IMG/VR virus record: IMGVR_UViG_2547132415_000019
Span: 1 to 18,947 of that record
Source of the DNA: a virus
Lineage: Duplodnaviria; Heunggongvirae; Uroviricota; Caudoviricetes
Length of the DNA stretch: 18,947 bases
Direction: 5' to 3' (one strand)
Shown: one piece after another, positions 1-12,125 of the stretch
How positions within the stretch are numbered: the stretch's first letter is position 1
Layout of the letters: the number at the start of each line of letters is the position of its first letter
The notes under the pieces: model-generated
What the model saw: only the letters and a program-made list of their open reading frames with translations
The model's database searches: none
Told to the model about the DNA's origin: nothing
Program-made: the position numbers and the translations under genes

Positions 1-1053
1 TTACGGGGTAATGCCAACCGCTGCCGCCACTTTGTCGCCACTTGGCAGCGTTGCCAGAGGGTTGAAACGGAGCGCCGTTTCCAGATGATCCGGTGCCAGA
101 TGTGCGTAACGCATCGTCATTTTTATATCGTGATGCCCGAGAATTTTTTGTAAGGCCAGGATGTTTCCACCCGACATCATAAAATGCGCCGCAAACGTAT
201 GACGCAGAACGTGTGTCAGTTGACCGCGAGGGAGCACGATAGACGTTTTTTCCATCACGGATAAAAATTGAAAATAGCAGTCTGTAAAGAAATTGAACCC
301 ATCAAGTGCCATAATCTCTTCGTAAAGCTCTTTACTGATGGGAATGCTTCTGTTTTTCTTCCCCTTCGTTCTGACAAAGGTAATTCGGTATTTAGTCACC
401 TGTGAACGGGTAAGATTTATTGCTTCTCGCCAGCGTGCGCCTGTGCTTAAGCATATCTTGACTACCAGTGCCAGAATTGGGTCCTGACGTTTGCAATCAG
501 CCAGCAATTCAACAATCTGTTCATGGGTAAGCCATGCCATCTCTTTTTCTGCGATGGTGAATTTTCGCATGTTCTCCAGTGGGTTCGGATACGACCATTC
601 GCCCAGGCGGGATAGTTCGCTAAAAACACTACTTAGATAGCTTTGCTCCAGGTTAACGGTGACCGGGCTTGCTCCTTTCTTCCATTTTTCGCTGAAGTAG
701 ATCTCTCCTGTCAGGCGTTTATCTCGATAGTGGGCAAACATTTTAGAGGTGAGATCGGTTGCAATGGGATTTCCCAGAGCGTCAACCATCAACAGCAATT
801 TGTCATAGACATGCTGCCCAGCCGTCAGAGATTTACCATGTAGTTTGAACCATAGCTCAACCACGTCTTTCAGTGTTCGACGATCCACTGATTCACCCAG
901 CCAGGGTTTTGCTTCGGTTTCTTCCATCGTGTGACGCTCAAAAGCCAATGCTTCACCCTTAGTTGCAAACTGCTTACGCACACGCCGCCCATTGCGCCCG
1001 GCGGGGTAGCATTCACAAATCCATTTACCTGTGTTGAGTTTTCGTACTGCCAT
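1..1053 (-). CDS. int: Tyrosine recombinase / phage integrase
   Basis: 350 aa ORF. C-terminal catalytic region has LTHVLRHTFA (His-x-x-Arg) and MRYAHL (catalytic Tyr). Sits at the prophage end next to the repressor. Confidence 0.9.
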   Translation of the reverse strand: MAVRKLNTGKWICECYPAGRNGRRVRKQFATKGEALAFERHTMEETEAKPWLGESVDRRTLKDVVELWFKLHGKSLTAGQHVYDKLLLMVDALGNPIATDLTSKMFAHYRDKRLTGEIYFSEKWKKGASPVTVNLEQSYLSSVFSELSRLGEWSYPNPLENMRKFTIAEKEMAWLTHEQIVELLADCKRQDPILALVVKICLSTGARWREAINLTRSQVTKYRITFVRTKGKKNRSIPISKELYEEIMALDGFNFFTDCYFQFLSVMEKTSIVLPRGQLTHVLRHTFAAHFMMSGGNILALQKILGHHDIKMTMRYAHLAPDHLETALRFNPLATLPSGDKVAAAVGITP

Positions 1054-1078
1054 AAAAAAGTCCTCATGTCTGAGGACT
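1054..1078 (-). terminator. Candidate intrinsic terminator/attenuator hairpin directly upstream of the int start codon
   Basis: Perfect 8-bp inverted repeat AGTCCTCA (1059-1066) / TGAGGACT (1071-1078) with loop TGTC. On the minus strand the stem is followed by T6 (plus-strand A6 at 1054-1059) and then immediately the int ATG. Confidence 0.5.
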
Positions 1079-1135
1079 AAATTTAACTGTATGTTTGAAC
1101 AGTGGTCAATGTTTAAAGATCTTCAATTAAACATT

Positions 1136-2476
1136 TCATTGGAGCAAGAAAACTTTTAAGGTGTTTTTGAATATTCTAACAGGGTCTTCTACACCTGCAT
1201 TTCCTTTTAAAATATGATAATCACTTATTTCAGCCCATCTGTTTTTTTCATCGTTTTCAGAAGGAAGTAAAGGAGAACCTTCTGGCATATATTTATAAGT
1301 TATACCAAATAATGCATAATAGTAGATGTTGATGTTATATTGATCTGTCTGATATGGGAGTCTATTAACACCGAAGAAATTGATTATTAATTGTGCATCT
1401 ATTTTATCTTCTACGTAGTTAAGGGCCAGTTCACGACCAAACGAATAAAGAATTACTGCAAGGGTTCGATAACAGCAATAGCCTGGTATAAATTTATTGC
1501 TGATTTCATTTTGAGATAAAATTTGATAAATTTCTAGATATCTTGATAAGGTTTCAACTTCCCGTAGCGACAAGCCTTTTAGTTCGATAAATTTTTGAAC
1601 TATATGAATACTACTTTCTCCAATTTCTTTTAGTCTTTCAGACTCGTTACATAGCATTCTAAAATGAGAGTTCGAAGCCAAAATTTTATCGTAATTGTTT
1701 TCAGTGAAAGTCACTGGCAGGCTGTAAGTGAATTTTATAAATTTATCAAGATATCTTTCTGAGTCAACACCTGCACCGTAAATATGATTTATTGATGCTT
1801 TCAATTGTGAGATGTTAGCAACTAACAAGAAGTTAAGATTTTCAGTGTCAAAAACATGTTTTATATTTTCGATGATAGAGATGGCAAAGCTTGGTTTACA
1901 ACGGTCAAGTTCGTCAATGATAATTGTTATTTTATTTTCGCTAGTTAGTTCAGCAAGTACTTCCTTGAGAGCAAGCAAATGTTTCTTTGCTTCAATATGA
2001 TCATCAAGCAGTGCTTCTACAGTACCATCTATAGCTGAGTTAGCCGCATCTTTAATAGCATCTTCGAATTCATCCGCAATATCATCTGCATTTTGTTTTA
2101 AAATCCACCCAGCGCCAGCTTTGAGTACAGTTTTAAGTCCAAATCTCAATGCTGGTAATGCCTTTGATATTAATTCCTTCTTTTCACTCTCTGGATATAA
2201 TGCAACTATTGCAGCCATTATAGTAAGTATGGGAGCATCATTATGATCTTCAGTAAATGCATCAATATATACTACTTTATGCCCAGATTCATTTTTTTCA
2301 ATCAATGCCGCTAATTTTTTTGAAAATTCGGTTTTACCGGTACCCCAGTCCCCATCGATAACAATAGGGGATATTTTTAAGGGGGACTCGAGTAAGCTTA
2401 TTATTTTTTCAGCAATGATTTTTCTATTATACTCATCTCTGTTTTCAAAAGTCATATCATTATTCATATGAAGCAA
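1136..2476 (-). CDS. KAP-family P-loop NTPase (cargo gene)
   Basis: 446 aa. Walker A GDWGTGKTEF; Walker B-like hydrophobic stretch ITIIIDELDRC; an Ala/Gly/Leu-rich segment between them (ALPALRFGLKTVLKAGAGWIL) as in KAP NTPases. Markedly AT-rich by eye compared with the phage core. Confidence 0.8.
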   Translation of the reverse strand: MLHMNNDMTFENRDEYNRKIIAEKIISLLESPLKISPIVIDGDWGTGKTEFSKKLAALIEKNESGHKVVYIDAFTEDHNDAPILTIMAAIVALYPESEKKELISKALPALRFGLKTVLKAGAGWILKQNADDIADEFEDAIKDAANSAIDGTVEALLDDHIEAKKHLLALKEVLAELTSENKITIIIDELDRCKPSFAISIIENIKHVFDTENLNFLLVANISQLKASINHIYGAGVDSERYLDKFIKFTYSLPVTFTENNYDKILASNSHFRMLCNESERLKEIGESSIHIVQKFIELKGLSLREVETLSRYLEIYQILSQNEISNKFIPGYCCYRTLAVILYSFGRELALNYVEDKIDAQLIINFFGVNRLPYQTDQYNINIYYYALFGITYKYMPEGSPLLPSENDEKNRWAEISDYHILKGNAGVEDPVRIFKNTLKVFLLQ

Positions 2477-2478
2477 CC

Positions 2479-2664
2479 TTAGTTTTTAGAACATATTTTC
2501 TTTGACTTGCTTGGCGTTCCATCATTGCAAACGAACTTCCCATCAGATGTACAATGTGAAACTCCCCCTTTCTTACCAGAACATGGATAATTTTTTGCAA
2601 AACTTGTAATAGGTAAAGTAATAAATAAACAAATAAGTAGGATATGTATAGATTTATAAAACAT
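2479..2664 (-). CDS. Small Cys-rich secreted peptide (signal peptide + ~38 aa Lys/Cys-rich mature part); alternative start at 2682
   Basis: Minus-strand AAGGAAA sits about 6 nt upstream of the second ATG (2664). Encodes [23 protein letters not shown] then [38 protein letters not shown] (4 Cys). Its stop lies 3 nt from the KAP NTPase start, so it is probably co-transcribed. Confidence 0.5.
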
Positions 2665-2687
2665 ATTTATTTCCTTATACATTAATT

Positions 2688-3257
2688 TTAATAATTGACG
2701 ATCGCGCTTCTAATTTTTCCTATGATATCAATTTCATCTATTTTGCATTCAAAGGAACTGCTGCCGCCATCGACATTTAGACGACGTCCCGGCAGTCTTG
2801 TCAGATTCCTGATAGCAACCTCGCCATCAATATCAACGATCCACTTACCATCACGTACATCCTCATAATCCGAATCACAGATAAACTCTGATGCGCCATC
2901 GATCACAACAAAAGGTTTTTTTAGTTTTTCAGGCAAAAAGTTGTTGTCGAAAATGTAGTAACCATCAGGAAGTAGTTTTCCGCTTGATAAAATCTTCCTT
3001 TCGATCTCTTTTGTGTTTTCTTTTTGTGAACTTTCTTTTGAACCTTGCCCAGTAGTTAGCCACTCTAGCGACGTGCCGGTTTCAAGTGCACATTGGATTA
3101 CCCATTCTGCCGGGAATGAATCACGCATATAGCGCGTGGCTAAGGTGCTTTTAGAAATGCCCAAATGATCACACAAAGCTTGTCTTGTCTTGAAACCATA
3201 GGCTTCAACCATGCGCTCTATGGCCCCACGACCGCCTTTTTCCAAATTCATGGTCAC
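2688..3257 (-). CDS. cI: CI-type immunity repressor (phage 186 CI-like)
   Basis: 189 aa, transcribed divergently from the lytic operon. N-terminal region ([28 protein letters not shown]...[16 protein letters not shown]) resembles the 186 CI N-terminal domain as I recall it. GGAG about 6 nt upstream of the ATG on the minus strand. Confidence 0.8.
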
Positions 3258-3376: not shown

Positions 3377-3598
3377 ATGAGACCTAACATTTCAATCACT
3401 CTCATCACCCCCCACGTTACTATAGAAAGATATAGTGAACTCACTGGCTTATCTATCGACACAATTAACGACATGCTTGCAGATGGGCGTTTGCCTCGTC
3501 ATCGCCTACGTAAGGATAAAAAGCGTGAAAAAGTGATGATTAACATTGCTGCGATGACGATCGATGCCCTCTCTGATTGCAACGTGACTATCAACTAG
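3377..3598 (+). CDS. Apl/Cox-like small DNA-binding regulator/excisionase (alternative TTG start at 3353)
   Basis: First gene of the rightward early operon, about 73 aa, basic. AGAGGA lies about 10 nt upstream of the ATG at 3377. Assignment is mainly positional. Confidence 0.55.
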   Translation: MRPNISITLITPHVTIERYSELTGLSIDTINDMLADGRLPRHRLRKDKKREKVMINIAAMTIDALSDCNVTIN

Positions 3599-3630
3599 TT
3601 CCATTTTGAGACTTCACGGAGCAACTGACT

Positions 3631-4140
3631 ATGTTTGACTATCGCATTTCAAAACATCCCCATTTCAATGAAGCCTGCCGGGCCTTCGCCCTACGACACA
3701 ACATGGCGAAGCTGGCAGAGCGCGCAGGTATGAACGTTCAAACCTTGCGTAACAAGCTCAACCCGGAACAACCACACCAACTTACTGCGTCAGATATCTG
3801 GCAGTTAACCGATCTCACTGAAGACCCAACACTGGTTGATGGATTTCTGGCTCAGATTCACTGCCTGCCATGTATACCGGTAAATGAGGTGGCAAAAGAG
3901 AGACTGCCACATTACGTCATGAGTGCAACCGCAGAGATCGGGCGTGTTGCTGCAGGTGCGGTTTCTGGCGATGTAAAAACCAGTGCAGGCCGTCGCGATG
4001 CGATCAGCAGCATTAATTCTGTAACACGACTGATGGCGCTGGCGGCTGTTTCATTGCAGGCCCGTTTACAGGCTAATCCTGCGATGGCGAGTGCAGTTGA
4101 TACCGTGACTGGCCTCGGTGCTTCATTCGGTTTGCTGTGA
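3631..4140 (+). CDS. cII: CII-like transcriptional activator (phage 186 CII family)
   Basis: 169 aa. Strongly resembles 186 CII as recalled (MFD..SKHPH..EACRAFA.RHNMAKLAERAGMNVQTLRNKLNPEQPHQ...LTDLTED.TLVDGFLAQIHCLPC...NPAM.S.VDT..G.GASFGL). Same length and position as in 186. Confidence 0.8.
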   Translation: MFDYRISKHPHFNEACRAFALRHNMAKLAERAGMNVQTLRNKLNPEQPHQLTASDIWQLTDLTEDPTLVDGFLAQIHCLPCIPVNEVAKERLPHYVMSATAEIGRVAAGAVSGDVKTSAGRRDAISSINSVTRLMALAAVSLQARLQANPAMASAVDTVTGLGASFGLL

Positions 4141-4147
4141 GGTGCTT

Positions 4148-4444
4148 ATGCTGACGAAAGAACCATCATTTGCATCGCTGCTGGTAAAACAAAGCCCGGC
4201 AATGCACTACGGTCACGGCTGGATCATGGGTGAGGATGGTAAACGCTGGCATCCATGTCATTCACAAGATGAATTGCTGTCTGAATTGACCACGAGGAAA
4301 CGGAGAAAGTCAAAATGTATGCAGCGGAAAGTGAAATGGTTTATCAGTTTCGTTACAGAGGGGAGAGTTATTCAGTACCTGAAGATGATTTGCTCTGTTG
4401 CTATCCGTCATTGTCGGGCGATGGCAGTTACTTTTTCGCGTTAA
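4148..4444 (+). CDS. Hypothetical early protein; 3' portion overlaps the next ORF and may be non-coding or frameshifted
   Basis: GAGGTG 5 nt upstream of the ATG at 4148. The 5' half reads like protein (MLTKEPSFASLLVKQSPAMHYGHGWIMGEDGKRWHPCHSQDELLSELTT); the 3' half is Cys/Arg-rich and overlaps 4315-4539 in another frame. Confidence 0.35.
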   Translation: MLTKEPSFASLLVKQSPAMHYGHGWIMGEDGKRWHPCHSQDELLSELTTRKRRKSKCMQRKVKWFISFVTEGRVIQYLKMICSVAIRHCRAMAVTFSR

Positions 4445-4539
4445 AGGATGGGACGTTTTTACGGGGAGAGCAGGTTAAAGAGACGATACGAAAAAATGTA
4501 TCTCCTCTTGAGCGTTACCGTAAGAACAAAGAACGATAG
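4315..4539 (+). CDS. Hypothetical early protein (74 aa)
   Basis: GGAGAAAG about 7 nt upstream of the ATG; sequence composition looks protein-like. Confidence 0.5.
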   Translation: MYAAESEMVYQFRYRGESYSVPEDDLLCCYPSLSGDGSYFFALKDGTFLRGEQVKETIRKNVSPLERYRKNKER

Positions 4540-4561
4540 CTGCGTTTGGGGGATATGAAGT

Positions 4562-4903
4562 ATGGCAATTAATGGCGCTGCAGCAACTGTTCCATTAAGC
4601 CCCGGTGAACGCCTGAATGGACTTAATCACATTGCGGAGTTAAGGGCGAAAGTTTTTGGCCTGAATATTGAGTCAGAGCTTGAGCGGTTTATTAAAGATA
4701 TGCGTGATCCACGGGATATCAATAATGAACAAAATAAACGGGCACTGGCTGCCATATTCTTTATGGCAAAAATTCCAGCTGAACGTCATAGCATCAGCAT
4801 TAATGAGCTGACCACTGACGAAAAGCGGGAGCTGATTAAAGCAATGAATCATTTTCGTGCAGTGGTGAGCTTATTTCCCAGACGGCTAACCATGCCGAAT
4901 TAA
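4562..4903 (+). CDS. Hypothetical early protein (113 aa)
   Basis: Intact ORF in the early operon; G-rich stretch upstream of the ATG. Confidence 0.55.
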   Translation: MAINGAAATVPLSPGERLNGLNHIAELRAKVFGLNIESELERFIKDMRDPRDINNEQNKRALAAIFFMAKIPAERHSISINELTTDEKRELIKAMNHFRAVVSLFPRRLTMPN

Positions 4904-4970
4904 CCAACTAATGAAATTAATGGCGTAAACCCGCCGGGCATCCCTTTATCTAAATTCAGGAGAATTGATT

Positions 4971-5204
4971 ATGCGTAATATTGAAACCCTCACGACTAAA
5001 ACCGGACCGGATGACGCAGGGCTTAATATTTTACTGACAGAGGCTCGTCTGGAAGAACGCCGGGCAAGGGCTGAAGCAATGGCAGCTCGCCTTGATAGCC
5101 TGGCGTGTCATATCTCATCCCGTCAGCTAAACCACGTGGAAGCGGCAGAACTGCTGCGTGTGACTGCTGAAGCAATCCAGAACGAAGCGCAGGAGATCCA
5201 CTAA
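4971..5204 (+). CDS. Hypothetical early protein (about 77 aa, predicted helical/coiled)
   Basis: CAGGAGAA about 7 nt upstream of the ATG at 4971. Its stop overlaps the next start (TAATG). Confidence 0.55.
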   Translation: MRNIETLTTKTGPDDAGLNILLTEARLEERRARAEAMAARLDSLACHISSRQLNHVEAAELLRVTAEAIQNEAQEIH

Positions 5205-5431
5205 TGGCTGATGCAATGGATCTCGTACAGCAGCGCGTTGAAGAAGAACGCCAGCGCCATATCCGTGCTGCCCGTGCCAAAACGCCGGGCGTGTCCCGCG
5301 TGCTTTGCGTTGAGTGTGAAGCGCCAATTCCGCCAGCACGCCGCCGTGCCATTCCGGGTGTGCAGCTTTGCATTACCTGTCAGGAAATCGCAGAGCTGAA
5401 AGGCAAACATTACAACGGGGGTGCTGTATGA
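5204..5431 (+). CDS. TraR/DksA-type C4 zinc-finger protein (P2 orf82-like)
   Basis: 75 aa with C-x2-C ... C-x2-C (CVECEAPIPPARRRAIPGVQLCITCQ), typical of phage TraR-like proteins at this position. Confidence 0.8.
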   Translation: MADAMDLVQQRVEEERQRHIRAARAKTPGVSRVLCVECEAPIPPARRRAIPGVQLCITCQEIAELKGKHYNGGAV

Positions 5432-6285
5432 GCACCATCCTGAAATGGGCGGGAAATAAAACCGCCGTAATGTCCGAACTGAAAAAACATCTTCCTGCTG
5501 GTCCGCGACTAGTTGAACCTTTCGCGGGTTCCTGTGCTGTGATGATGGAGACGGATTATCCCTGCTATCTGGTTGCGGATATTAATCCTGATTTAATCAA
5601 CCTCTATAAAAAGGTTGCCGCTGATTGTGAATCGTTTATATCTCGCGCCAAAGTTTTATTTGAGATCGCAAACAGGGAGGTGGCTTATTACAACATAAGG
5701 CAGGAGTTTAATTACTCAACTGAAATTACTGATTTCATGAAAGCGGTATATTTCCTGTATCTCAATCGTCACGGTTACCGTGGGTTATGTCGCTATAACA
5801 AGAGCGGGCATTTCAACATTCCCTACGGTAATTATAAAAATCCGTATTTCCCTGAAAAAGAAATTCGCGCTTTTGCAGAAAAAGCCCAGCGAGCAACGTT
5901 TATCTGCGCCAGCTTTGATGAAACGCTGGCGATGTTGAAGGCGGGGGATGTGGTGTATTGCGATCCGCCTTATGACGGTACGTTTTCCGGCTATCACGCT
6001 GACGGCTTTACTGAAGATGACCAGTATCACCTGGCATCCGTTCTTGAACATCGGTCATCAGAAGGACATCCGGCCATTGTTTCTAACAGTGACACATCCC
6101 TGATCCGTTCGCTGTATCGCAATTTTACTCACCACTATATCAAGGTAAAACGCAGCATCGGCGCAGCAGCTGGTGAGAGTAAATCAGCAACAGAAATCAT
6201 TGCTGTTTCCGGACCGCGCTGCTGGGTGGGATTTGATTATTCGCGTGGCGTGGATAGTTCTGCCGTGTACGGAGTACGTGCATGA
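5428..6285 (+). CDS. dam: DNA adenine (N6) methyltransferase, Dam-like
   Basis: N-terminal SAM-binding region (LKWAGNK ... [10 protein letters not shown]) and catalytic DPPY motif (VYCDPPYDG). ATG at 5428 overlaps the upstream stop (ATGA) and its own stop overlaps the A start. Confidence 0.85.
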
Positions 6286-8696: not shown

Positions 8697-8790
8697 TTAC
8701 GCGGGTTAACAATTCGTGCTCTTAATAATACCAGGCATATCAGGCTGATGAACGTAAAAAAACGTTTTACATCAGTAAGATTATCATATA

Positions 8791-8806
8791 CTGTAAATAT
8801 AAACAG
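8791..8806. promoter_or_regulatory. LexA (SOS) box CTGTAAATATAAACAG overlapping a sigma70-like promoter
   Basis: Exact CTGT-N8-ACAG with an AT-rich core. Upstream TTTACA (8766-8771) and TATACT (8787-8792) could be -35/-10. A second degenerate half-site (ACAG at 8818-8821) follows. Confidence 0.7.
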
Positions 8807-8849
8807 TGGTTATCTATACAGTATTGTTTGCGGTGTCATAGGAGGAAAG

Positions 8850-9038
8850 ATGCAGGACTATTTTTTGGAGTCTTTGAAGCTCCAGCGCATTGATTTTTTT
8901 CTTAAGCTTGTAGCGGCTAGTGAGTGTAGTGATGAAGAGAAGGGGCTGGCCCTGCAGTGGGTTTCTGAATTGACTGATGAACTCATGGCAAAAATCAGAA
9001 GCCACGAATACAACCGCTCAATGGATGTCATCAGCTGA
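8850..9038 (+). CDS. Small hypothetical protein, first gene of the SOS-controlled module (possible Tum-like N-terminal part)
   Basis: GGAGG 4-5 nt upstream of the ATG at 8850; 62 aa. The ORF-track start at 8748 would read through the promoter and LexA box, so it is unlikely. Confidence 0.5.
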   Translation: MQDYFLESLKLQRIDFFLKLVAASECSDEEKGLALQWVSELTDELMAKIRSHEYNRSMDVIS

Positions 9039-9048
9039 GGTGACTTTT

Positions 9049-9282
9049 ATGCGCATTGAAATAATGATCGATAAAGAGCAGAAGATTAGCCAGTCTACCC
9101 TGGACGCTCTGGAGTCCGAGCTTTACCGCAACCTGCAACCCATCTATCCCAAGACCGCTATCCGCATCCGTAAAGGGTCGGCAAACGGCGTTGAGCTGAG
9201 TGGCTTAAAGCTTGATGAAGACAAAAAGCGGGTGATGGAAATTATGCAACAGGTTTGGGAAGACGACAGCTGGCTGCACTAA
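9049..9282 (+). CDS. DinI-family protein (phage Tum/MsgA-like, SOS-associated)
   Basis: 77 aa starting MRIEIMIDKEQKISQSTLDALESELYRNLQ ... EDDSWL, matching the DinI fold pattern (MRIEV...L...EL..R......WE..D.W). GAGGTG upstream of the ATG. Confidence 0.8.
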   Translation: MRIEIMIDKEQKISQSTLDALESELYRNLQPIYPKTAIRIRKGSANGVELSGLKLDEDKKRVMEIMQQVWEDDSWLH

Positions 9283-9664: not shown

Positions 9665-10276
9665 ATGGATTTAGTCTTTAAAGTTCTGGCTTCGTTGGGT
9701 GGGGTGTCTTTTGTTGCATCTGGCATATTTGTTTGGATCGGGAAAGTTTATTTAGAAAGATATAAGTCGCGGCTAAACAAAGATATTGCTGAATTTCAAT
9801 CACAACTGAGTGCAACTAATGAAAGAATAAAGGCTAAGTTAGACAATTCTGTTTATGTAACGAAAGCGTATTTTGATAAGGAGTTATCAGCATATAGTCT
9901 CATTTGGAATTCGATGTTTGAAACCAGAGAAAGCGTGCTTAAGCTGAGGCCTGCGCTGGATCATGTTGACCCCAACGAACCATTTGAAGAGAGAAAATTT
10001 AGAAGGTTGAAAGTTTTTTCTGATGCATTTAACACTTTTGTTACAAGTGTTGAATCTAACAAACCGTTCATCTCACCAGAGGTTTATATAATCTTGGACC
10101 GTTTCCGGAAGGAATGCCTTTCAGAGTCAATATCGTTTAAGCATAGCGATCCAGAATTTGACGGGCAAAATTATTGGAAAGAGGCGGAGTTGAACCATAC
10201 AACCATCATCAAGCTTTTTGATGAGACGTGTGATGCAATTCGAGACAGGATGCACACATTAACTGTGGTTACGTAG
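9665..10276 (+). CDS. Single-pass membrane protein with N-terminal TM helix and coiled-coil-like region (cargo; function unknown)
   Basis: 203 aa. Residues about 5-27 are hydrophobic (VLASLGGVSFVASGIFVWIG). AT-rich. G-rich stretch upstream of the ATG. Confidence 0.65.
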   Translation: MDLVFKVLASLGGVSFVASGIFVWIGKVYLERYKSRLNKDIAEFQSQLSATNERIKAKLDNSVYVTKAYFDKELSAYSLIWNSMFETRESVLKLRPALDHVDPNEPFEERKFRRLKVFSDAFNTFVTSVESNKPFISPEVYIILDRFRKECLSESISFKHSDPEFDGQNYWKEAELNHTTIIKLFDETCDAIRDRMHTLTVVT

Positions 10277-10585: not shown

Positions 10586-11161
10586 ATGCTTTTACCCGTA
10601 AGTGTTACATCGTGTGGCTTGTATCACCCCTACTGGCATTTGGGAGAGCGCAACCCTCATAGCGATGAACTATCAAGGCAGATGATGGATTTTAAGGATG
10701 AAAATAATCGTAATCATCAAAGGGCTATTAACCGTTTTTCTCGATTAGCTATAGATAAGGTTGGGCGGTTAGTAATCAGAGGTGGCGGTGGGCGTTTTGT
10801 TGAGTCTCCTTTTTCGATAGCAGTCGTCCCATCTCACACTGAAGGCAGAATTTCACCGGCTTTGATTGAGGTCGCCGAGCGAATCGTAAATGTTCACCGT
10901 CGGGGCATTGTTGATTGCTGTTTGGAAAGAACACGCACTGTTCCTAGCGCACATCGTGAAGGAGGAGATCGCTCAATTACTGGTCACATGTCTAGTATCA
11001 GAGTTAGGGGTGGTAACCTCATGGGGCGAAATGTGTTACTACTAGATGATGTTAAAACAACAGGCGGTAGTTTGTCTGCGTGTTTTTATTTACTGGAGTC
11101 TGCAGGAGCTGGAGTTATAATGCCATTAGCTCTGCTAGAAACTGCAAACTATGAGGAGTAG
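10586..11161 (+). CDS. Phosphoribosyltransferase (PRTase)-domain protein, ComF-like (start uncertain)
   Basis: C-terminal type I PRTase PRPP-binding signature NVLLLDDVKTTGGSL. 191 aa. Stop overlaps the DprA-like start. AT-rich. Confidence 0.75.
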   Translation: MLLPVSVTSCGLYHPYWHLGERNPHSDELSRQMMDFKDENNRNHQRAINRFSRLAIDKVGRLVIRGGGGRFVESPFSIAVVPSHTEGRISPALIEVAERIVNVHRRGIVDCCLERTRTVPSAHREGGDRSITGHMSSIRVRGGNLMGRNVLLLDDVKTTGGSLSACFYLLESAGAGVIMPLALLETANYEE

Positions 11162-12125
11162 CAAAGTGCACTCAGAAGAATTAAAAAATACACTTGGATT
11201 AGCTATTCAAATCGGGAAGCTAGCATCTGATCAAAGTGTATTGAAATTCTTTGAGCTTATTGATTTTGATGTTATTCGTGATATACGCGACTTAACTGAG
11301 ATGGTTAATAGCCACGGGTTTCTAAAAGATAAAATATCTGAGACTGATTTTCTAATAGCGAATGCTGAATTGGAGAACCACCATGTTAATGGTGTGGAGC
11401 TAATACCATATGGGTCTGAATTCTATCCTCTTAGTTTAGCGTTTACTCCTAATCCACCATCAATTCTCTACATAAAAGGGGATAAAAGTATACTAAAAGA
11501 ATTGCCGGGTGTCGCAATTGTAGGATCCCGTGATACTTCCCCTGCAGGGGAAGAAATAACGAGGCGAATCACTAATCAGATAGTGTCTGCTGGGTATATT
11601 GTTGTAAGTGGGTTAGCAATAGGCACTGATGCGAATGCTCATAAGGCAACGTTACAAGCAAAAGGAAAAACCATTGCTGTCTTGGCGCATGGTCTTGAGG
11701 AGGCTAAGCCGAAGCAAAACAGTCGACTTGCTCAAGAGATTCTGGATAAAGGTGGTGCATGGATTTCTGAGTATCCTATGGGTCGACCGGCCCAGAAACA
11801 ATCATTTGTACAAAGAAATCGGATACAAGTTGGATTATCTGCAGGTTCAATTTTAATCGAGGCTGCGTTAAATAGCGGAACGATAACTCAAGCTGAGTTT
11901 GCAAATAAGGCGAAAAGACCAGTGTTTGCGGTTGTACCTCACCTACCTAATAATCCGCTTAATCTTAATTGTGAGGGAACAGTTGATTTAGTTAAGAGCA
12001 ACATGGCTAGAGCGTTAAAAACAAAACGGGATTATGATGATGTGATTATGATCATAAATGAGTCTCGGGAGTATTTGTTAGAGCTAAAATGGCCAGGGAA
12101 ACAGAGTACATTAGACTTGATTTAA
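11151..12125 (+). CDS. DprA/Smf-like (SLOG superfamily) Rossmann-fold protein (alternative GTG start at 11166)
   Basis: 324 aa. GVAIVGSRDTSPAGEE ... VVSGLAIGTDANAHKATL matches the DprA motif pattern (G.R......G ... SGLA.GID..AH). ATG overlaps the PRTase stop by 11 nt; GAGGAG precedes the GTG at 11166. Confidence 0.8.
   Translation: MRSSKVHSEELKNTLGLAIQIGKLASDQSVLKFFELIDFDVIRDIRDLTEMVNSHGFLKDKISETDFLIANAELENHHVNGVELIPYGSEFYPLSLAFTPNPPSILYIKGDKSILKELPGVAIVGSRDTSPAGEEITRRITNQIVSAGYIVVSGLAIGTDANAHKATLQAKGKTIAVLAHGLEEAKPKQNSRLAQEILDKGGAWISEYPMGRPAQKQSFVQRNRIQVGLSAGSILIEAALNSGTITQAEFANKAKRPVFAVVPHLPNNPLNLNCEGTVDLVKSNMARALKTKRDYDDVIMIINESREYLLELKWPGKQSTLDLI

What the first reader, a model, noticed from the sequence alone, without database searches (positions are those of the whole stretch)
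1136..2682. KAP-family NTPase plus secreted Cys-rich mini-protein inserted inside the cI-int lysogenic operon
Between the repressor and integrase genes, which are adjacent in P2/186, lies a strongly AT-rich two-gene insert on the same strand. It encodes a 61-67 aa signal-peptide-bearing peptide with four cysteines and a Lys-rich mature part, followed 3 nt later by a 446 aa KAP P-loop NTPase (Walker A GDWGTGKT; Walker B-like IIIDELD). The position means it should be expressed from the lysogenic promoter in every lysogen, the classic arrangement for lysogenic-conversion or defence genes. KAP NTPases are predicted membrane-associated signalling/conflict ATPases, and I know of no characterised pairing with a secreted Cys-rich peptide.
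Basis: partly seen in the sequence, partly recalled or inferred. Interest (0 to 1): 0.75.

Follow-up and report, generated by a model that had tools for sequence, protein, structure and literature searches.

The report
Prophage cargo: KAP ATPase plus YdcA peptide
Two real but separable cargo genes sit in a known type of variable slot behind the repressor gene of a 186-like E. coli prophage: a small exported YdcA-family peptide, and a soluble KAP-type ATPase from an already catalogued but untested candidate anti-phage family. They are not a dedicated two-gene system.

Summary
An AT-rich block (29-33% GC against 42-48% in cI and int) lies between cI and int of a 186-like prophage. It encodes a 61-aa signal-peptide protein with four invariant cysteines, then a 443-aa KAP P-loop NTPase.

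- The NTPase matches the PADLOC single-gene candidate family PDC-S20 over its full length (E 1e-171). It has no transmembrane segment.
- Relatives recur alone in two prophage cargo sites: the cI-int slot of 186-like phages and the Q-holin gap of lambdoid phages.
- The peptide belongs to the YdcA family (53% identical to E. coli K-12 YdcA).
- The peptide sits alone in the same slot in about 600 of 5426 complete E. coli genomes. The pair occurs in 9, and a related KAP without ydcA in 15.
- The same slot carries PD-Lambda-1, a named PADLOC defence system, in phage vB_EcoM-813R9.

The best reading is two independent genes riding the repressor transcript. The KAP is most likely a stand-alone, ATP-dependent anti-phage switch with a fast-evolving C-terminal sensor. 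The peptide is most likely a periplasmic lysogen-expressed factor of unknown role.

Neither function was tested here. Cooperation is not excluded, because the pair recurs in two KAP clades and at least six genera.

Verdict: a new member of a known kind, of moderate-to-low interest.

The parts
2688..3257 (-). cI immunity repressor of a 186-like prophage. The RefSeq start is probably ATG 3251. It heads the transcript that carries the cargo.
   Evidence: Pfam Phage_CI_repr 3.1e-33 and Phage_CI_C 6.2e-29. Annotated 'phage repressor protein CI' in 9 E. coli genomes.
2479..2664 (-). ydcA-family gene of 61 aa. The signal peptide is encoded at 2596..2664. The mature 38-aa Lys-rich peptide with four cysteines is encoded at 2482..2595.
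   Evidence: phrog_6000 6e-26. NCBIfam PRK10040 NF007463 5.9e-25 at 86.8 bits, below the 93-bit cutoff. The identical protein P0121 carries PF27300 YdcA. 53% identity to K-12 YdcA. Hydropathy, AAGGA Shine-Dalgarno and cleavage site. Invariant P, four C, GG, H, F, DG, S-x-SK.
1136..2467 (-). KAP-family P-loop NTPase of 443 aa (446 aa from the upstream TTG at 2476), soluble. Walker A 2330..2353, Walker B 1904..1924. Conserved helical insert between them at 1937..2191. Variable C-terminal helical domain at 1139..1501.
   Evidence: Pfam KAP_NTPase 3.8e-51. PADLOC PDC-S20 model PDLC04956 1.1e-171 over 4-444 of 446. phrog_8614 2e-96. No TM-like window. AF2 model pLDDT 80.2 with RdrA as best PDB fold match. 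Conservation is 0.36 in the C-terminus against 0.65-0.73 in the core.
1054..1125 (-). Conserved int leader that forms the right-hand border of the cargo slot. It holds a promoter-like TTGACC-18-TAAATT (1109..1080), a LexA-box palindrome (1086..1103) and a hairpin (1078..1059) holding the int Shine-Dalgarno, followed by a T-run.
   Evidence: Present with compensatory stem changes in every slot state, including the KAP-less L022. Homology between the KAP-less and KAP-bearing loci resumes at the last ~9 nt of the KAP ORF.
1..1053 (-). P2/186-type tyrosine integrase.
   Evidence: Pfam Int_N 1.7e-32 and Phage_integrase 7.2e-22.
3377..4140 (+). Divergent early lytic genes: an apl/cox-like gene (3377..3598) and cII (3631..4140). 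They fix the identity of the switch region.
   Evidence: ORFs. RefSeq annotation 'phage regulatory CII family protein' and neighbouring Fil, DUF2732, TraR/DksA, Dam and gpA genes. The layout matches phage 186.

Best explanation
The block is two separable accessory genes occupying a variable cargo slot. The slot lies between the cI stop codon and a conserved int leader in a lineage of 186-like (P2-family) prophages.

Shown:
- Both genes are real and conserved.
- Each occurs in the slot without the other.
- The slot holds other cargo in related phages, including the named PADLOC defence system PD-Lambda-1.
- The KAP is a full-length member of the single-gene candidate family PDC-S20. It has intact Walker motifs, no membrane segment, a conserved NTPase core and a poorly conserved C-terminal helical domain.

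Inferred:
- Both genes are co-transcribed with cI from the lysogenic promoter, so they are made in every lysogen.
- The KAP acts alone as an anti-phage switch. Its variable C-terminal domain recognises a component of an infecting phage. This drives nucleotide-dependent assembly, possibly into a ring as in its best fold match RdrA, with ATP turnover that blocks phage replication. Activity would depend on Walker A and B, as in the tested KAP defences EF_KAP and Tmn.
- The YdcA-type peptide is exported by Sec, cleaved after SFA and folded with two disulfides. It acts separately in the periplasm as a lysogen-expressed envelope factor. Superinfection exclusion or envelope fitness are the candidate roles.
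- What the KAP does downstream of sensing is unknown, because no recognisable effector domain is present.
For: KAP identity.

Stand-alone recurrence of the KAP:
- cI-KAP-int without ydcA in L010-12 and in 15 E. coli genomes.
- About 50 of 80 IMG/VR loci have the KAP alone between the Q antiterminator and the holin, on the opposite strand.

ydcA alone:
- L022-27.
- 669 E. coli genomes match the ydcA-only slot DNA, 590 of them over >=80% of the query.
- Haemophilus phage HP2 has a ydcA-like ORF right after cI.
- Moraxella and Acinetobacter phages, and the K-12 chromosome.

No enrichment: 9 of 24 KAP-bearing E. coli genomes also have ydcA, against a base rate of roughly 55-60%.

The slot is a hotspot:
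- PD-Lambda-1 at 3e-120 in vB_EcoM-813R9, and a 349-aa unknown in Klebsiella phage 4LV2017.
- Literature: PMC9122126 (cI-int hotspot in K139-like phages) and PMC13586616 (8% of P2 systems between int and the primase; the single-gene KAP system 'Reve' protects).

KAP defences are Walker-dependent: PMC13552941 and PMC12632615 (EF_KAP), and the Tmn preprint 10.1101/2022.08.21.504612.

Variable C-terminus. No TM segment. Operon layout and the single terminator-like site.
Against: - No experiment or transcript data exist for this family. The string 'PDC-S20' occurs in no held paper.
- The protein has no recognisable effector, so the protective step is a guess.
- The fold match to RdrA is weak (TM-score 0.35-0.45).
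- ydcA plus KAP recurs with an 11-13 nt spacer in two KAP clades and at least six genera.
- ydcA identity correlates with KAP identity (Spearman 0.50) more than with cI identity (0.27). That fits tight linkage but equally fits co-adaptation.
- Every member of KAP clade A that was examined had ydcA upstream.
Confidence: 0.55

Rival explanations
1. ydcA and the KAP form a functional two-gene module. For example, the exported peptide or its precursor conditions, triggers or restrains the cytoplasmic ATPase. Alternatively the two provide coupled periplasmic and cytoplasmic layers that need each other.
For: - The pair keeps the same order and an 11-13 nt spacer in E. coli, Enterobacter, Buttiauxella, Kosakonia, Klebsiella and Citrobacter prophages.
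- It occurs with two KAP clades only 53-56% identical to each other.
- ydcA identity tracks KAP identity (Spearman 0.50).
- This KAP lacks the TM helices of canonical KAPs, so a membrane or periplasmic partner supplied in trans is conceivable.
Against: - Each gene persists intact alone in the same slot: ydcA in about 600 E. coli genomes and the KAP in 15.
- About 50 lambdoid loci have the KAP with no ydcA.
- Yersinia loci replace ydcA with an unrelated soluble 160-aa protein.
- There is no enrichment over the ydcA base rate.
- After export the two products are in different compartments, and the KAP has no membrane span.
- The correlation is expected for genes 11 nt apart.
Confidence: 0.13
2. 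The KAP serves the prophage's own biology rather than defence against other phages. Candidate roles are control of lysogeny or induction, interference with P4-type satellites, or genome maintenance.
For: - It sits inside the immunity region next to cI and int.
- There is no effector domain.
- P2-like phages are parasitised by P4-like satellites, and their cargo is shaped by that conflict (PMC9122126, PMC13586616).
Against: - The same family sits in a completely different site and orientation in lambdoid prophages. That argues against a role tied to the 186 switch.
- Most 186-like prophages of this int family lack it: 24 of 1120 E. coli genomes carry one of the two slot KAP types searched. It is therefore dispensable.
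- The slot holds the defence system PD-Lambda-1 elsewhere.
- It matches a defence-candidate profile.
Confidence: 0.17
3. The AT-rich block is silenced or decaying horizontally acquired DNA with no current function.
For: GC of 29-33% is typical of H-NS-bound foreign DNA. The block is rare, in 9 of 5426 E. coli genomes.
Against: - ORFs stay intact from 100% down to about 40% identity. There are 47 invariant columns, including both Walker motifs and the YLDKF motif.
- The peptide has 16 invariant residues, including all four Cys.
- Tight operon spacing behind an essential prophage gene would drive transcription through any silencing.
Confidence: 0.05

Closest known systems
PADLOC candidate system PDC-S20 (single-gene 'phage defence candidate')
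   Same: Full-length profile match (PDLC04956, E 1.1e-171, residues 4-444 against profile positions 1-447 of 450). Three further PDC-S20 models match at 1e-60 to 3e-28. It behaves as a single gene in lambdoid contexts.
   Different: PDC-S20 is only a computational candidate. No paper in the held library names it, so membership says nothing about a proven function.
Experimentally tested KAP-type defence NTPases: EF_KAP and metagenomic KAPs (PMC13552941), Tmn (10.1101/2022.08.21.504612; PMC13001434), 'Reve' from P4 satellites (PMC13586616), and PifA of the F plasmid
   Same: KAP-family P-loop core carried on mobile elements as a single gene. The conserved NTPase is followed by a variable C-terminal region. 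The PADLOC PifA model matches residues 8-255 (2e-15).
   Different: EF_KAP and Tmn have transmembrane helices, and this protein has none. EF_KAP carries a 322-aa C-terminal region and the PifA profile is 720 positions long, against about 120-180 aa here. Homology to Reve could not be tested because no sequence was held.
RdrA, the ring-forming ATPase of the RADAR defence system (PDB 8hr8, 8fnu)
   Same: Best structural match of the AF2 model (Foldseek E 3e-5 to 1e-4). Both are defence-associated ATPases.
   Different: TM-scores are only 0.35-0.45 and identity is 11-16%. RdrA is about 800-850 aa and works with the RdrB deaminase, which is absent here.
YdcA of E. coli K-12 (b1419) and the YdcA family (PF27300, NCBIfam PRK10040)
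   Same: 53% identity over 53 aa (E 3e-18). Same architecture: a signal peptide plus a roughly 36-aa domain with the motif PCSGxKGG[VI]SHC...KFVCNDG.xS.SKK.C.
   Different: The K-12 gene is chromosomal and not in a prophage. The window protein scores below both equivalog cutoffs (86.8 against 93 bits, and 60 against 118 bits). No molecular function is established for the family. PMC7642389 reports only 3-hydroxypropionate sensitivity of a ydcA deletion and cites acid induction.
Prophage defence hotspots: cI-int of K139-like Vibrio phages, gpA-gpQ of P2, and psu-int of P4 (PMC9122126, PMC13586616)
   Same: Conserved flanks (the cI or ydcA 3' end, and the int leader) bracket interchangeable AT-rich cargo. 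That cargo includes PD-Lambda-1.
   Different: [quoted passage not shown] Its frequent resident ydcA gene is not discussed in the passages of the two hotspot papers that I searched.
Glo of Vibrio phage K139
   Same: PMC4870250 describes glo as encoding a periplasmic protein and calls it the K139 family immunity gene. This is a precedent for a lysogen-expressed periplasmic protein of a P2-related phage. From memory, not checked here, glo lies in the major control region with cI and int and contributes to exclusion.
   Different: No sequence comparison with Glo was made. From memory Glo is larger. The analogy concerns position and compartment only.
Dis2 (Lpg0823) of the Legionella Dot/Icm type IV secretion outer-membrane cap (PDB 7MUC, 7MUD; PMC8486379)
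   Same: It is the top PDB hit by both fold and profile. Foldseek gives 37-39% identity over 33-35 columns at rmsd 2.0-3.2 A. The profile gives E 1.6e-6 with the signal peptide and 0.011 with the mature part only. Dis2 is a disulfide-pinned mini-domain near the outer membrane, built of two lobes that each resemble YdcA.
   Different: The statistics are marginal (Foldseek E 0.9). YdcA is one lobe rather than two. No secretion system is nearby, and the function of Dis2 is itself unknown.

Membership tests
KAP family P-loop NTPase (Pfam PF07693) | Profile match above the Pfam gathering score | tested here: met
   174.5 bits against a cutoff of 20, E 3.8e-51, residues 19-318 against profile positions 2-290 of 293.
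KAP family P-loop NTPase (Pfam PF07693) | Walker A GxxxxGK[ST] and Walker B hhhhDExD, conserved in relatives | tested here: met
   GDWGTGKT and IIIDELD read from the sequence. G42, W44, G45, G47, K48 and D188, E189, L190, D191 are invariant in 31 sequences.
KAP family P-loop NTPase (Pfam PF07693) | Two or four transmembrane helices inserted in the P-loop domain, as the family is described in the Tmn preprint 10.1101/2022.08.21.504612 | tested here: not met
   The best 19-residue Kyte-Doolittle window is 1.10, below the 1.6 used here as a threshold. The Walker A-B insert (residues 96-180) is helical, charged or amphipathic, and conserved. This is a crude hydropathy test, not a dedicated predictor.
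PADLOC PDC-S20 | Full-length match to the family profile | tested here: met
   PDLC04956 E 1.1e-171, 570 bits, residues 4-444 against profile positions 1-447 of 450.
PADLOC PDC-S20 | Works as a single gene, with no obligate neighbour | tested here: met
   Relatives stand alone in the lambdoid Q-holin gap and directly after cI.
PADLOC PDC-S20 | Demonstrated anti-phage activity | not testable with these tools
   No paper in the held library names PDC-S20. This needs plaque assays.
PifA (F-plasmid T7 exclusion) | Full-length similarity to PifA, whose profile has 720 positions | tested here: not met
   Only the NTPase part matches: residues 8-255 against profile positions 11-255 of 720, E 2e-15.
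QatABCD (QatA) | QatA equivalog score, and QatB, QatC and QatD neighbours | tested here: not met
   NCBIfam QatA scores 42.9 bits against a cutoff of 600. The neighbours are ydcA and int.
RADAR (RdrA/RdrB) | An RdrA-like ATPase next to an RdrB adenosine deaminase | tested here: not met
   There is only a weak fold match (TM-score 0.35-0.45), and no deaminase gene is in the slot.
YdcA family (PF27300 / NCBIfam PRK10040) | Profile match | tested here: inconclusive
   The local Pfam copy gives no hit for this protein. PF27300 is recorded only as a precomputed domain for the identical protein P0121. NCBIfam hits at 5.9e-25 and 1.8e-16 are significant but below the equivalog cutoffs. RefSeq names it 'YdcA family protein' in 2 of the 9 genomes.
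YdcA family (PF27300 / NCBIfam PRK10040) | Signal peptide plus the four-Cys motif PCSGxKGGxSHC...FVCNDG..S.SK..C | tested here: met
Dedicated two-gene system (ydcA + KAP) | The partners co-occur across independent contexts more often than their base rates predict | tested here: not met
   71 of 80 IMG/VR KAP loci lack ydcA. In E. coli 9 of 24 KAP slots have ydcA against a base rate of roughly 55-60%. About 600 genomes have ydcA alone.
Prophage defence hotspot | Conserved flanking genes with interchangeable cargo that includes known defence systems | tested here: met
   The slot states seen are ydcA alone, KAP alone, ydcA plus KAP, a 160-aa protein plus KAP, PD-Lambda-1, and a 349-aa unknown. 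All lie between cI and a conserved int leader.
Dis2 (Lpg0823)-like disulfide mini-domain | Significant sequence or fold similarity to a Dis2 lobe | tested here: inconclusive
   It is the top hit in both searches but marginal. Foldseek gives E 0.9 at 37-39% identity. The profile gives 1.6e-6 with the signal peptide and 0.011 without it.

The most novel reading that the evidence does not exclude
The exported YdcA-type peptide and the TM-less KAP ATPase cooperate as a two-compartment immunity module of the lysogenic operon. In this reading the peptide is an outer-membrane-proximal, Dis2-lobe-like factor that excludes or senses incoming phage at the envelope. The cytoplasmic KAP is the back-up or responder. 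This would explain why the pair recurs with a fixed 11-13 nt spacer in two KAP clades and at least six genera.
Probability: 0.12. Interest if true: 0.6.

Novelty: new member of a known kind. Interest (0 to 1): 0.3.

Why it matters
If the KAP protects against phages, it would validate the PADLOC candidate family PDC-S20. It would also give a compact 443-aa, membrane-free KAP NTPase with no obvious effector. That is a convenient model for asking how such switches stop infection.

The analysis also defines the enterobacterial 186-like cI-int interval as a cargo slot with sharp borders. The left border is the ydcA or cI 3' end. The right border is a conserved, LexA-box-bearing int leader.

The more widespread and less studied element is the ydcA gene itself. 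It rides behind cI in about 11-12% of complete E. coli genomes and in Haemophilus phage HP2, yet has no known function.

None of this overturns current ideas. It adds members and a testable slot to an established picture.

Tried and rejected
- DNA search of the insert against deposited phage genomes found nothing. Only five distant protein-level KAP hits turned up.
The alignment-based scan worked.
- The profile of 31 KAPs found no PDB relative by sequence. Foldseek gave only weak ATPase-core matches.
- I tried to find the sequence of the validated KAP system 'Reve', but no supplement is held. One paper look-up failed on term length.
- I first concluded that ydcA follows the cI backbone rather than the KAP. 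A larger matrix contradicted this (Spearman: ydcA-KAP 0.50, ydcA-cI 0.27). I withdrew the claim and now say only that linkage and co-adaptation cannot be separated.
- I checked whether KAPs in the slot always have a secreted or membrane partner. They do not: the Yersinia companion is a soluble 160-aa protein, and the lambdoid copies have no partner.
- A lipoprotein reading of the peptide was rejected, because LLIC has Ile at the -1 position and that Cys is not conserved.
- The YdcA-Dis2 link was retested without the signal peptide and weakened from 1.6e-6 to 0.011. It is kept as a lead only.
- A literature search for an SOS-controlled int in P2-like phages found nothing relevant.
- Complex prediction of the pair was not possible with the tools.
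Full report
**1. What is there**

On the minus strand the window reads cI (2688..3257), a small ORF (2479..2682), a large ORF (1136..2476) and int (1..1053). The divergent apl/cox-like and cII genes follow on the plus strand.

- cI has the 186-type repressor domains, and int the P2-type integrase domains.
- The rest of the window is a P2/186-like genome: Dam methylase, gpA, portal, terminase, scaffold, capsid.
- The two-gene block has 29-33% GC, against 42% for cI, 48% for int and 49% for the window.
- In phage 186 itself cI and int overlap by one base, so this block is an insertion relative to 186.
- The same DNA is present at 99.8% identity in 9 of 5426 complete E. coli genomes. There it is annotated 'phage repressor protein CI | hypothetical or YdcA family protein | KAP family P-loop NTPase fold protein'.

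Two details need correcting.

- The supported starts are ATG 2664 (61 aa, preceded by AAGGA) and ATG 2467 (443 aa). The spacer is therefore 11 nt.
- The NTPase has no hydrophobic segment that could span a membrane. Its best 19-residue Kyte-Doolittle window is 1.10.

**2. The NTPase**

Family assignment:
- It matches Pfam KAP_NTPase (3.8e-51).
- It matches the PADLOC single-gene candidate family PDC-S20 over its full length (1.1e-171), and phrog_8614.
- Matches to PifA (2e-15) cover only the NTPase core. The QatA match (2.4e-10 in PADLOC; 42.9 bits against a 600-bit NCBIfam cutoff) is weak and well below the equivalog cutoff.

Conservation:
- A search returned 975 relatives at E<=1e-10.
- In an alignment of 31 sequences, both Walker motifs and a YLDKF motif are invariant.
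- Conservation is 0.65-0.73 in the NTPase core. It falls to 0.36 in the C-terminal 120 residues.

Structure:
- The AlphaFold2 model has mean pLDDT 80.2. It shows a P-loop core, a long helical insert between Walker A and B (where membrane-bound KAPs carry their TM hairpin), a helical lid and a C-terminal helical domain.
- The best solved-structure matches are RdrA rings of the RADAR system, but weakly (TM-score 0.35-0.45). No PDB relative is found by sequence.

**3. The peptide**

- It is a YdcA-family protein: phrog_6000 6e-26, NCBIfam PRK10040 models 5.9e-25 and 1.8e-16 (both below equivalog cutoffs), and PF27300 on the identical database protein.
- It is 53% identical to E. coli K-12 YdcA.
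- Across 23 homologues the signal peptide varies. The mature motif PCSG-KGG-SHC...FVCNDG--S-SK--C, with four Cys, is invariant or nearly so.
- The AF2 model is of moderate confidence (pLDDT 72.1) and shows a small beta-hairpin.
- The only PDB protein that stands out is Dis2 (Lpg0823), a disulfide-pinned two-lobed protein near the outer membrane in the Legionella Dot/Icm cap (PMC8486379).
- Dis2 is the top hit by Foldseek (E 0.9, 37-39% identity) and by profile. The profile gives 1.6e-6 with the signal peptide but only 0.011 for the mature part. I treat this as a lead, not a result.

**4. Is it a pair?**

Slot states found between cI and int of 186-like prophages:
- cI-ydcA-KAP-int in E. coli, Enterobacter, Buttiauxella (ydcA present but uncalled), Kosakonia, Klebsiella and Citrobacter.
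- cI-KAP-int with 31 nt between cI and the KAP, which leaves no room for ydcA.
- cI, then a soluble 160-aa unknown, then KAP-int in Yersinia.
- cI-ydcA-int with no KAP. This is very common.

Among 80 IMG/VR loci encoding KAP relatives:
- 27 are in the 186-like slot, and 9 of these have ydcA.
- About 50 are in lambdoid prophages between the Q antiterminator and the holin, on the opposite strand, and never with ydcA.

In 5426 complete E. coli genomes:
- 1120 carry this int family.
- 669 match the ydcA-only slot DNA, 590 of them over >=80% of the query.
- 9 carry the window's ydcA plus KAP.
- 15 carry a KAP without ydcA.

So ydcA accompanies the KAP no more often than its base rate predicts. ydcA-like genes also occur right after cI in Haemophilus phages HP2 and S2 (unannotated), among tail genes of Moraxella and Acinetobacter phages, and on the K-12 chromosome.

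The ydcA-only locus retains the last ~9 nt of the KAP ORF at its right junction. This suggests the KAP was lost or replaced there.

Against full independence:
- The pair occurs with two KAP clades only 53-56% identical to each other.
- ydcA identity correlates with KAP identity (Spearman 0.50) better than with cI identity (0.27).
- Genes 11 nt apart are expected to co-inherit, so this does not separate linkage from co-adaptation. I withdrew my earlier statement, based, that ydcA follows cI.
- After export the peptide and the TM-less ATPase would be in different compartments.

**5. The slot**

- A roughly 75-nt int leader is conserved in every slot state. It holds a promoter-like element, a perfect LexA-box palindrome and a hairpin containing the int ribosome-binding site. 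Compensatory stem changes occur between lineages.
- This leader forms the right border of the slot. The cI or ydcA 3' end forms the left border.
- The same slot holds PD-Lambda-1 (3e-120) in Escherichia phage vB_EcoM-813R9, and an unknown 349-aa protein in Klebsiella phage 4LV2017.
- A cI-int hotspot was described for K139-like Vibrio phages (PMC9122126). [quoted passage not shown]
- The window's prophage also carries a Shosta-like pair in the classical gpA-gpQ hotspot.

**6. Mechanism**

Shown:
- Family membership, intact catalytic motifs and absence of TM segments.
- A variable C-terminus and stand-alone recurrence in cargo sites.
- An operon-like layout, with no predicted terminator until the int leader.

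Inferred:
- Both genes are co-transcribed with cI.
- The KAP is a single-gene anti-phage switch. Its variable C-terminal domain senses a phage component, and its ATP-dependent assembly or turnover blocks replication.

The inference rests on analogy with tested KAP-type defences:
- EF_KAP requires Walker B and its C-terminal region, and is reported not to act by abortive infection (PMC13552941).
- Tmn depends on its P-loop (10.1101/2022.08.21.504612; PMC13001434).
- 'Reve' is a single-gene KAP system from P4 satellites that protects (PMC13586616).

What the protein does downstream of sensing is unknown, because it has no recognisable effector domain.

The peptide is most likely a Sec-exported, disulfide-bonded periplasmic factor made in lysogens. 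Superinfection exclusion is one candidate role. The positional precedent is the periplasmic Glo of K139, which PMC4870250 calls the K139 family immunity gene. An envelope-fitness role is the other candidate. A K-12 ydcA deletion is sensitive to 3-hydroxypropionate, and the gene is cited as acid-induced (PMC7642389).

**7. Verdict**

This is a real feature whose annotation and family are already in public databases. The KAP is a new, untested member of a catalogued candidate defence family, sitting in a known kind of prophage hotspot. The 'novel pairing' is best explained as two neighbouring cargo genes.

Interest is moderate to low (0.3). The residual novel reading, a cooperative periplasm-cytoplasm module, has a probability of roughly 0.12.

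Noticed in passing
window 1054-1125 (- strand); also L008-L060, about 75 nt upstream of int: A conserved int leader is present in all 186-like prophages that have a cI-int slot. It holds a TTGAC(C) -35-like box, a perfect LexA-box palindrome ACTGT-N8-ACAGT (1086-1103), and a hairpin (1059-1078) whose 3' arm holds the int Shine-Dalgarno. The stem shows compensatory changes between lineages (AGTCCTCA/TGAGGACT, AGCCCTCA/TGAGGGCT, ATGCTCTCC/GGAGGGCAT, CCCTT/AAGGG). This suggests SOS-controlled, structure-gated int expression. Phage 186 lacks the leader.
   Followed up: partly
window 10586-12125 (+ strand): A Shosta-like defence pair lies in the classical P2 gpA-gpQ hotspot. ShosT-like is at 10586..11161 (PADLOC 3.6e-14). 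ShosA/DprA-like is at 11151..12125 (PADLOC 2.8e-70; Pfam DNA_processg_A 1.4e-60). An unassigned 203-aa ORF lies upstream at 9665..10276.
   Followed up: partly
window 8790-8807: A second perfect LexA-box palindrome (ACTGTAAATATAAACAGT) lies just downstream of gpA. From my recollection of phage 186, this is the position of the SOS-controlled tum/p95 antirepressor promoter. Small ORFs follow at 8748..9038 and 8977..9282.
   Followed up: no
L001 (E. coli ST131 strain 4224, NZ_CP103592.1) 3870-6000: The int end of the identical prophage lies 74 bp from an ompF pseudogene annotated as missing its N-terminus. The prophage may therefore have integrated into, and disrupted, the OmpF porin gene in that strain. 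Other related prophages sit next to a TetR-family regulator and MFS transporter genes (rcdA in the vB_EcoM-813R9 record) instead.
   Followed up: no
L028 (Haemophilus phage HP2, NC_003315.1) 2601-2786; also phage S2, Z71579.1: An unannotated ydcA-like ORF (MKKLISTVLIASSFFMVANMADA|[37 protein letters not shown]) overlaps the cI stop. It precedes orf1(S), a 254-aa signal-peptide protein with a tRNA_anti-like OB domain, and then int.
   Followed up: partly
L115 (Moraxella phage Mcat13) 2992-3171; L116 (Acinetobacter phage Ab11510-phi) 3001-3102: ydcA-like genes also occur as small inserts elsewhere in unrelated temperate phages. In Mcat13 the gene lies among coat and tail genes. In Ab11510-phi the match falls in an unannotated gap between hypothetical genes. 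The family is therefore a promiscuous phage accessory gene.
   Followed up: partly
L032 (Escherichia phage vB_EcoM-813R9, ON470620.1) 4085-5761: The gene annotated 'chromosome segregation ATPase' in the cI-int slot is a PD-Lambda-1 homologue (PADLOC 3e-120). It has an N-terminal TM segment plus DUF4041 and T5orf172/MUG113 domains.
   Followed up: yes
window 1937-2191 (KAP residues 96-180): The helical insert between Walker A and B is well conserved (0.65) yet modelled with low confidence (pLDDT 31-50 over residues 114-154). It contains a cationic amphipathic stretch, ALPALRFGLKTVLKAGAGWILKQ, at the place where membrane-bound KAPs carry their TM hairpin. It may be a peripheral membrane-binding or oligomerisation element.
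   Followed up: no
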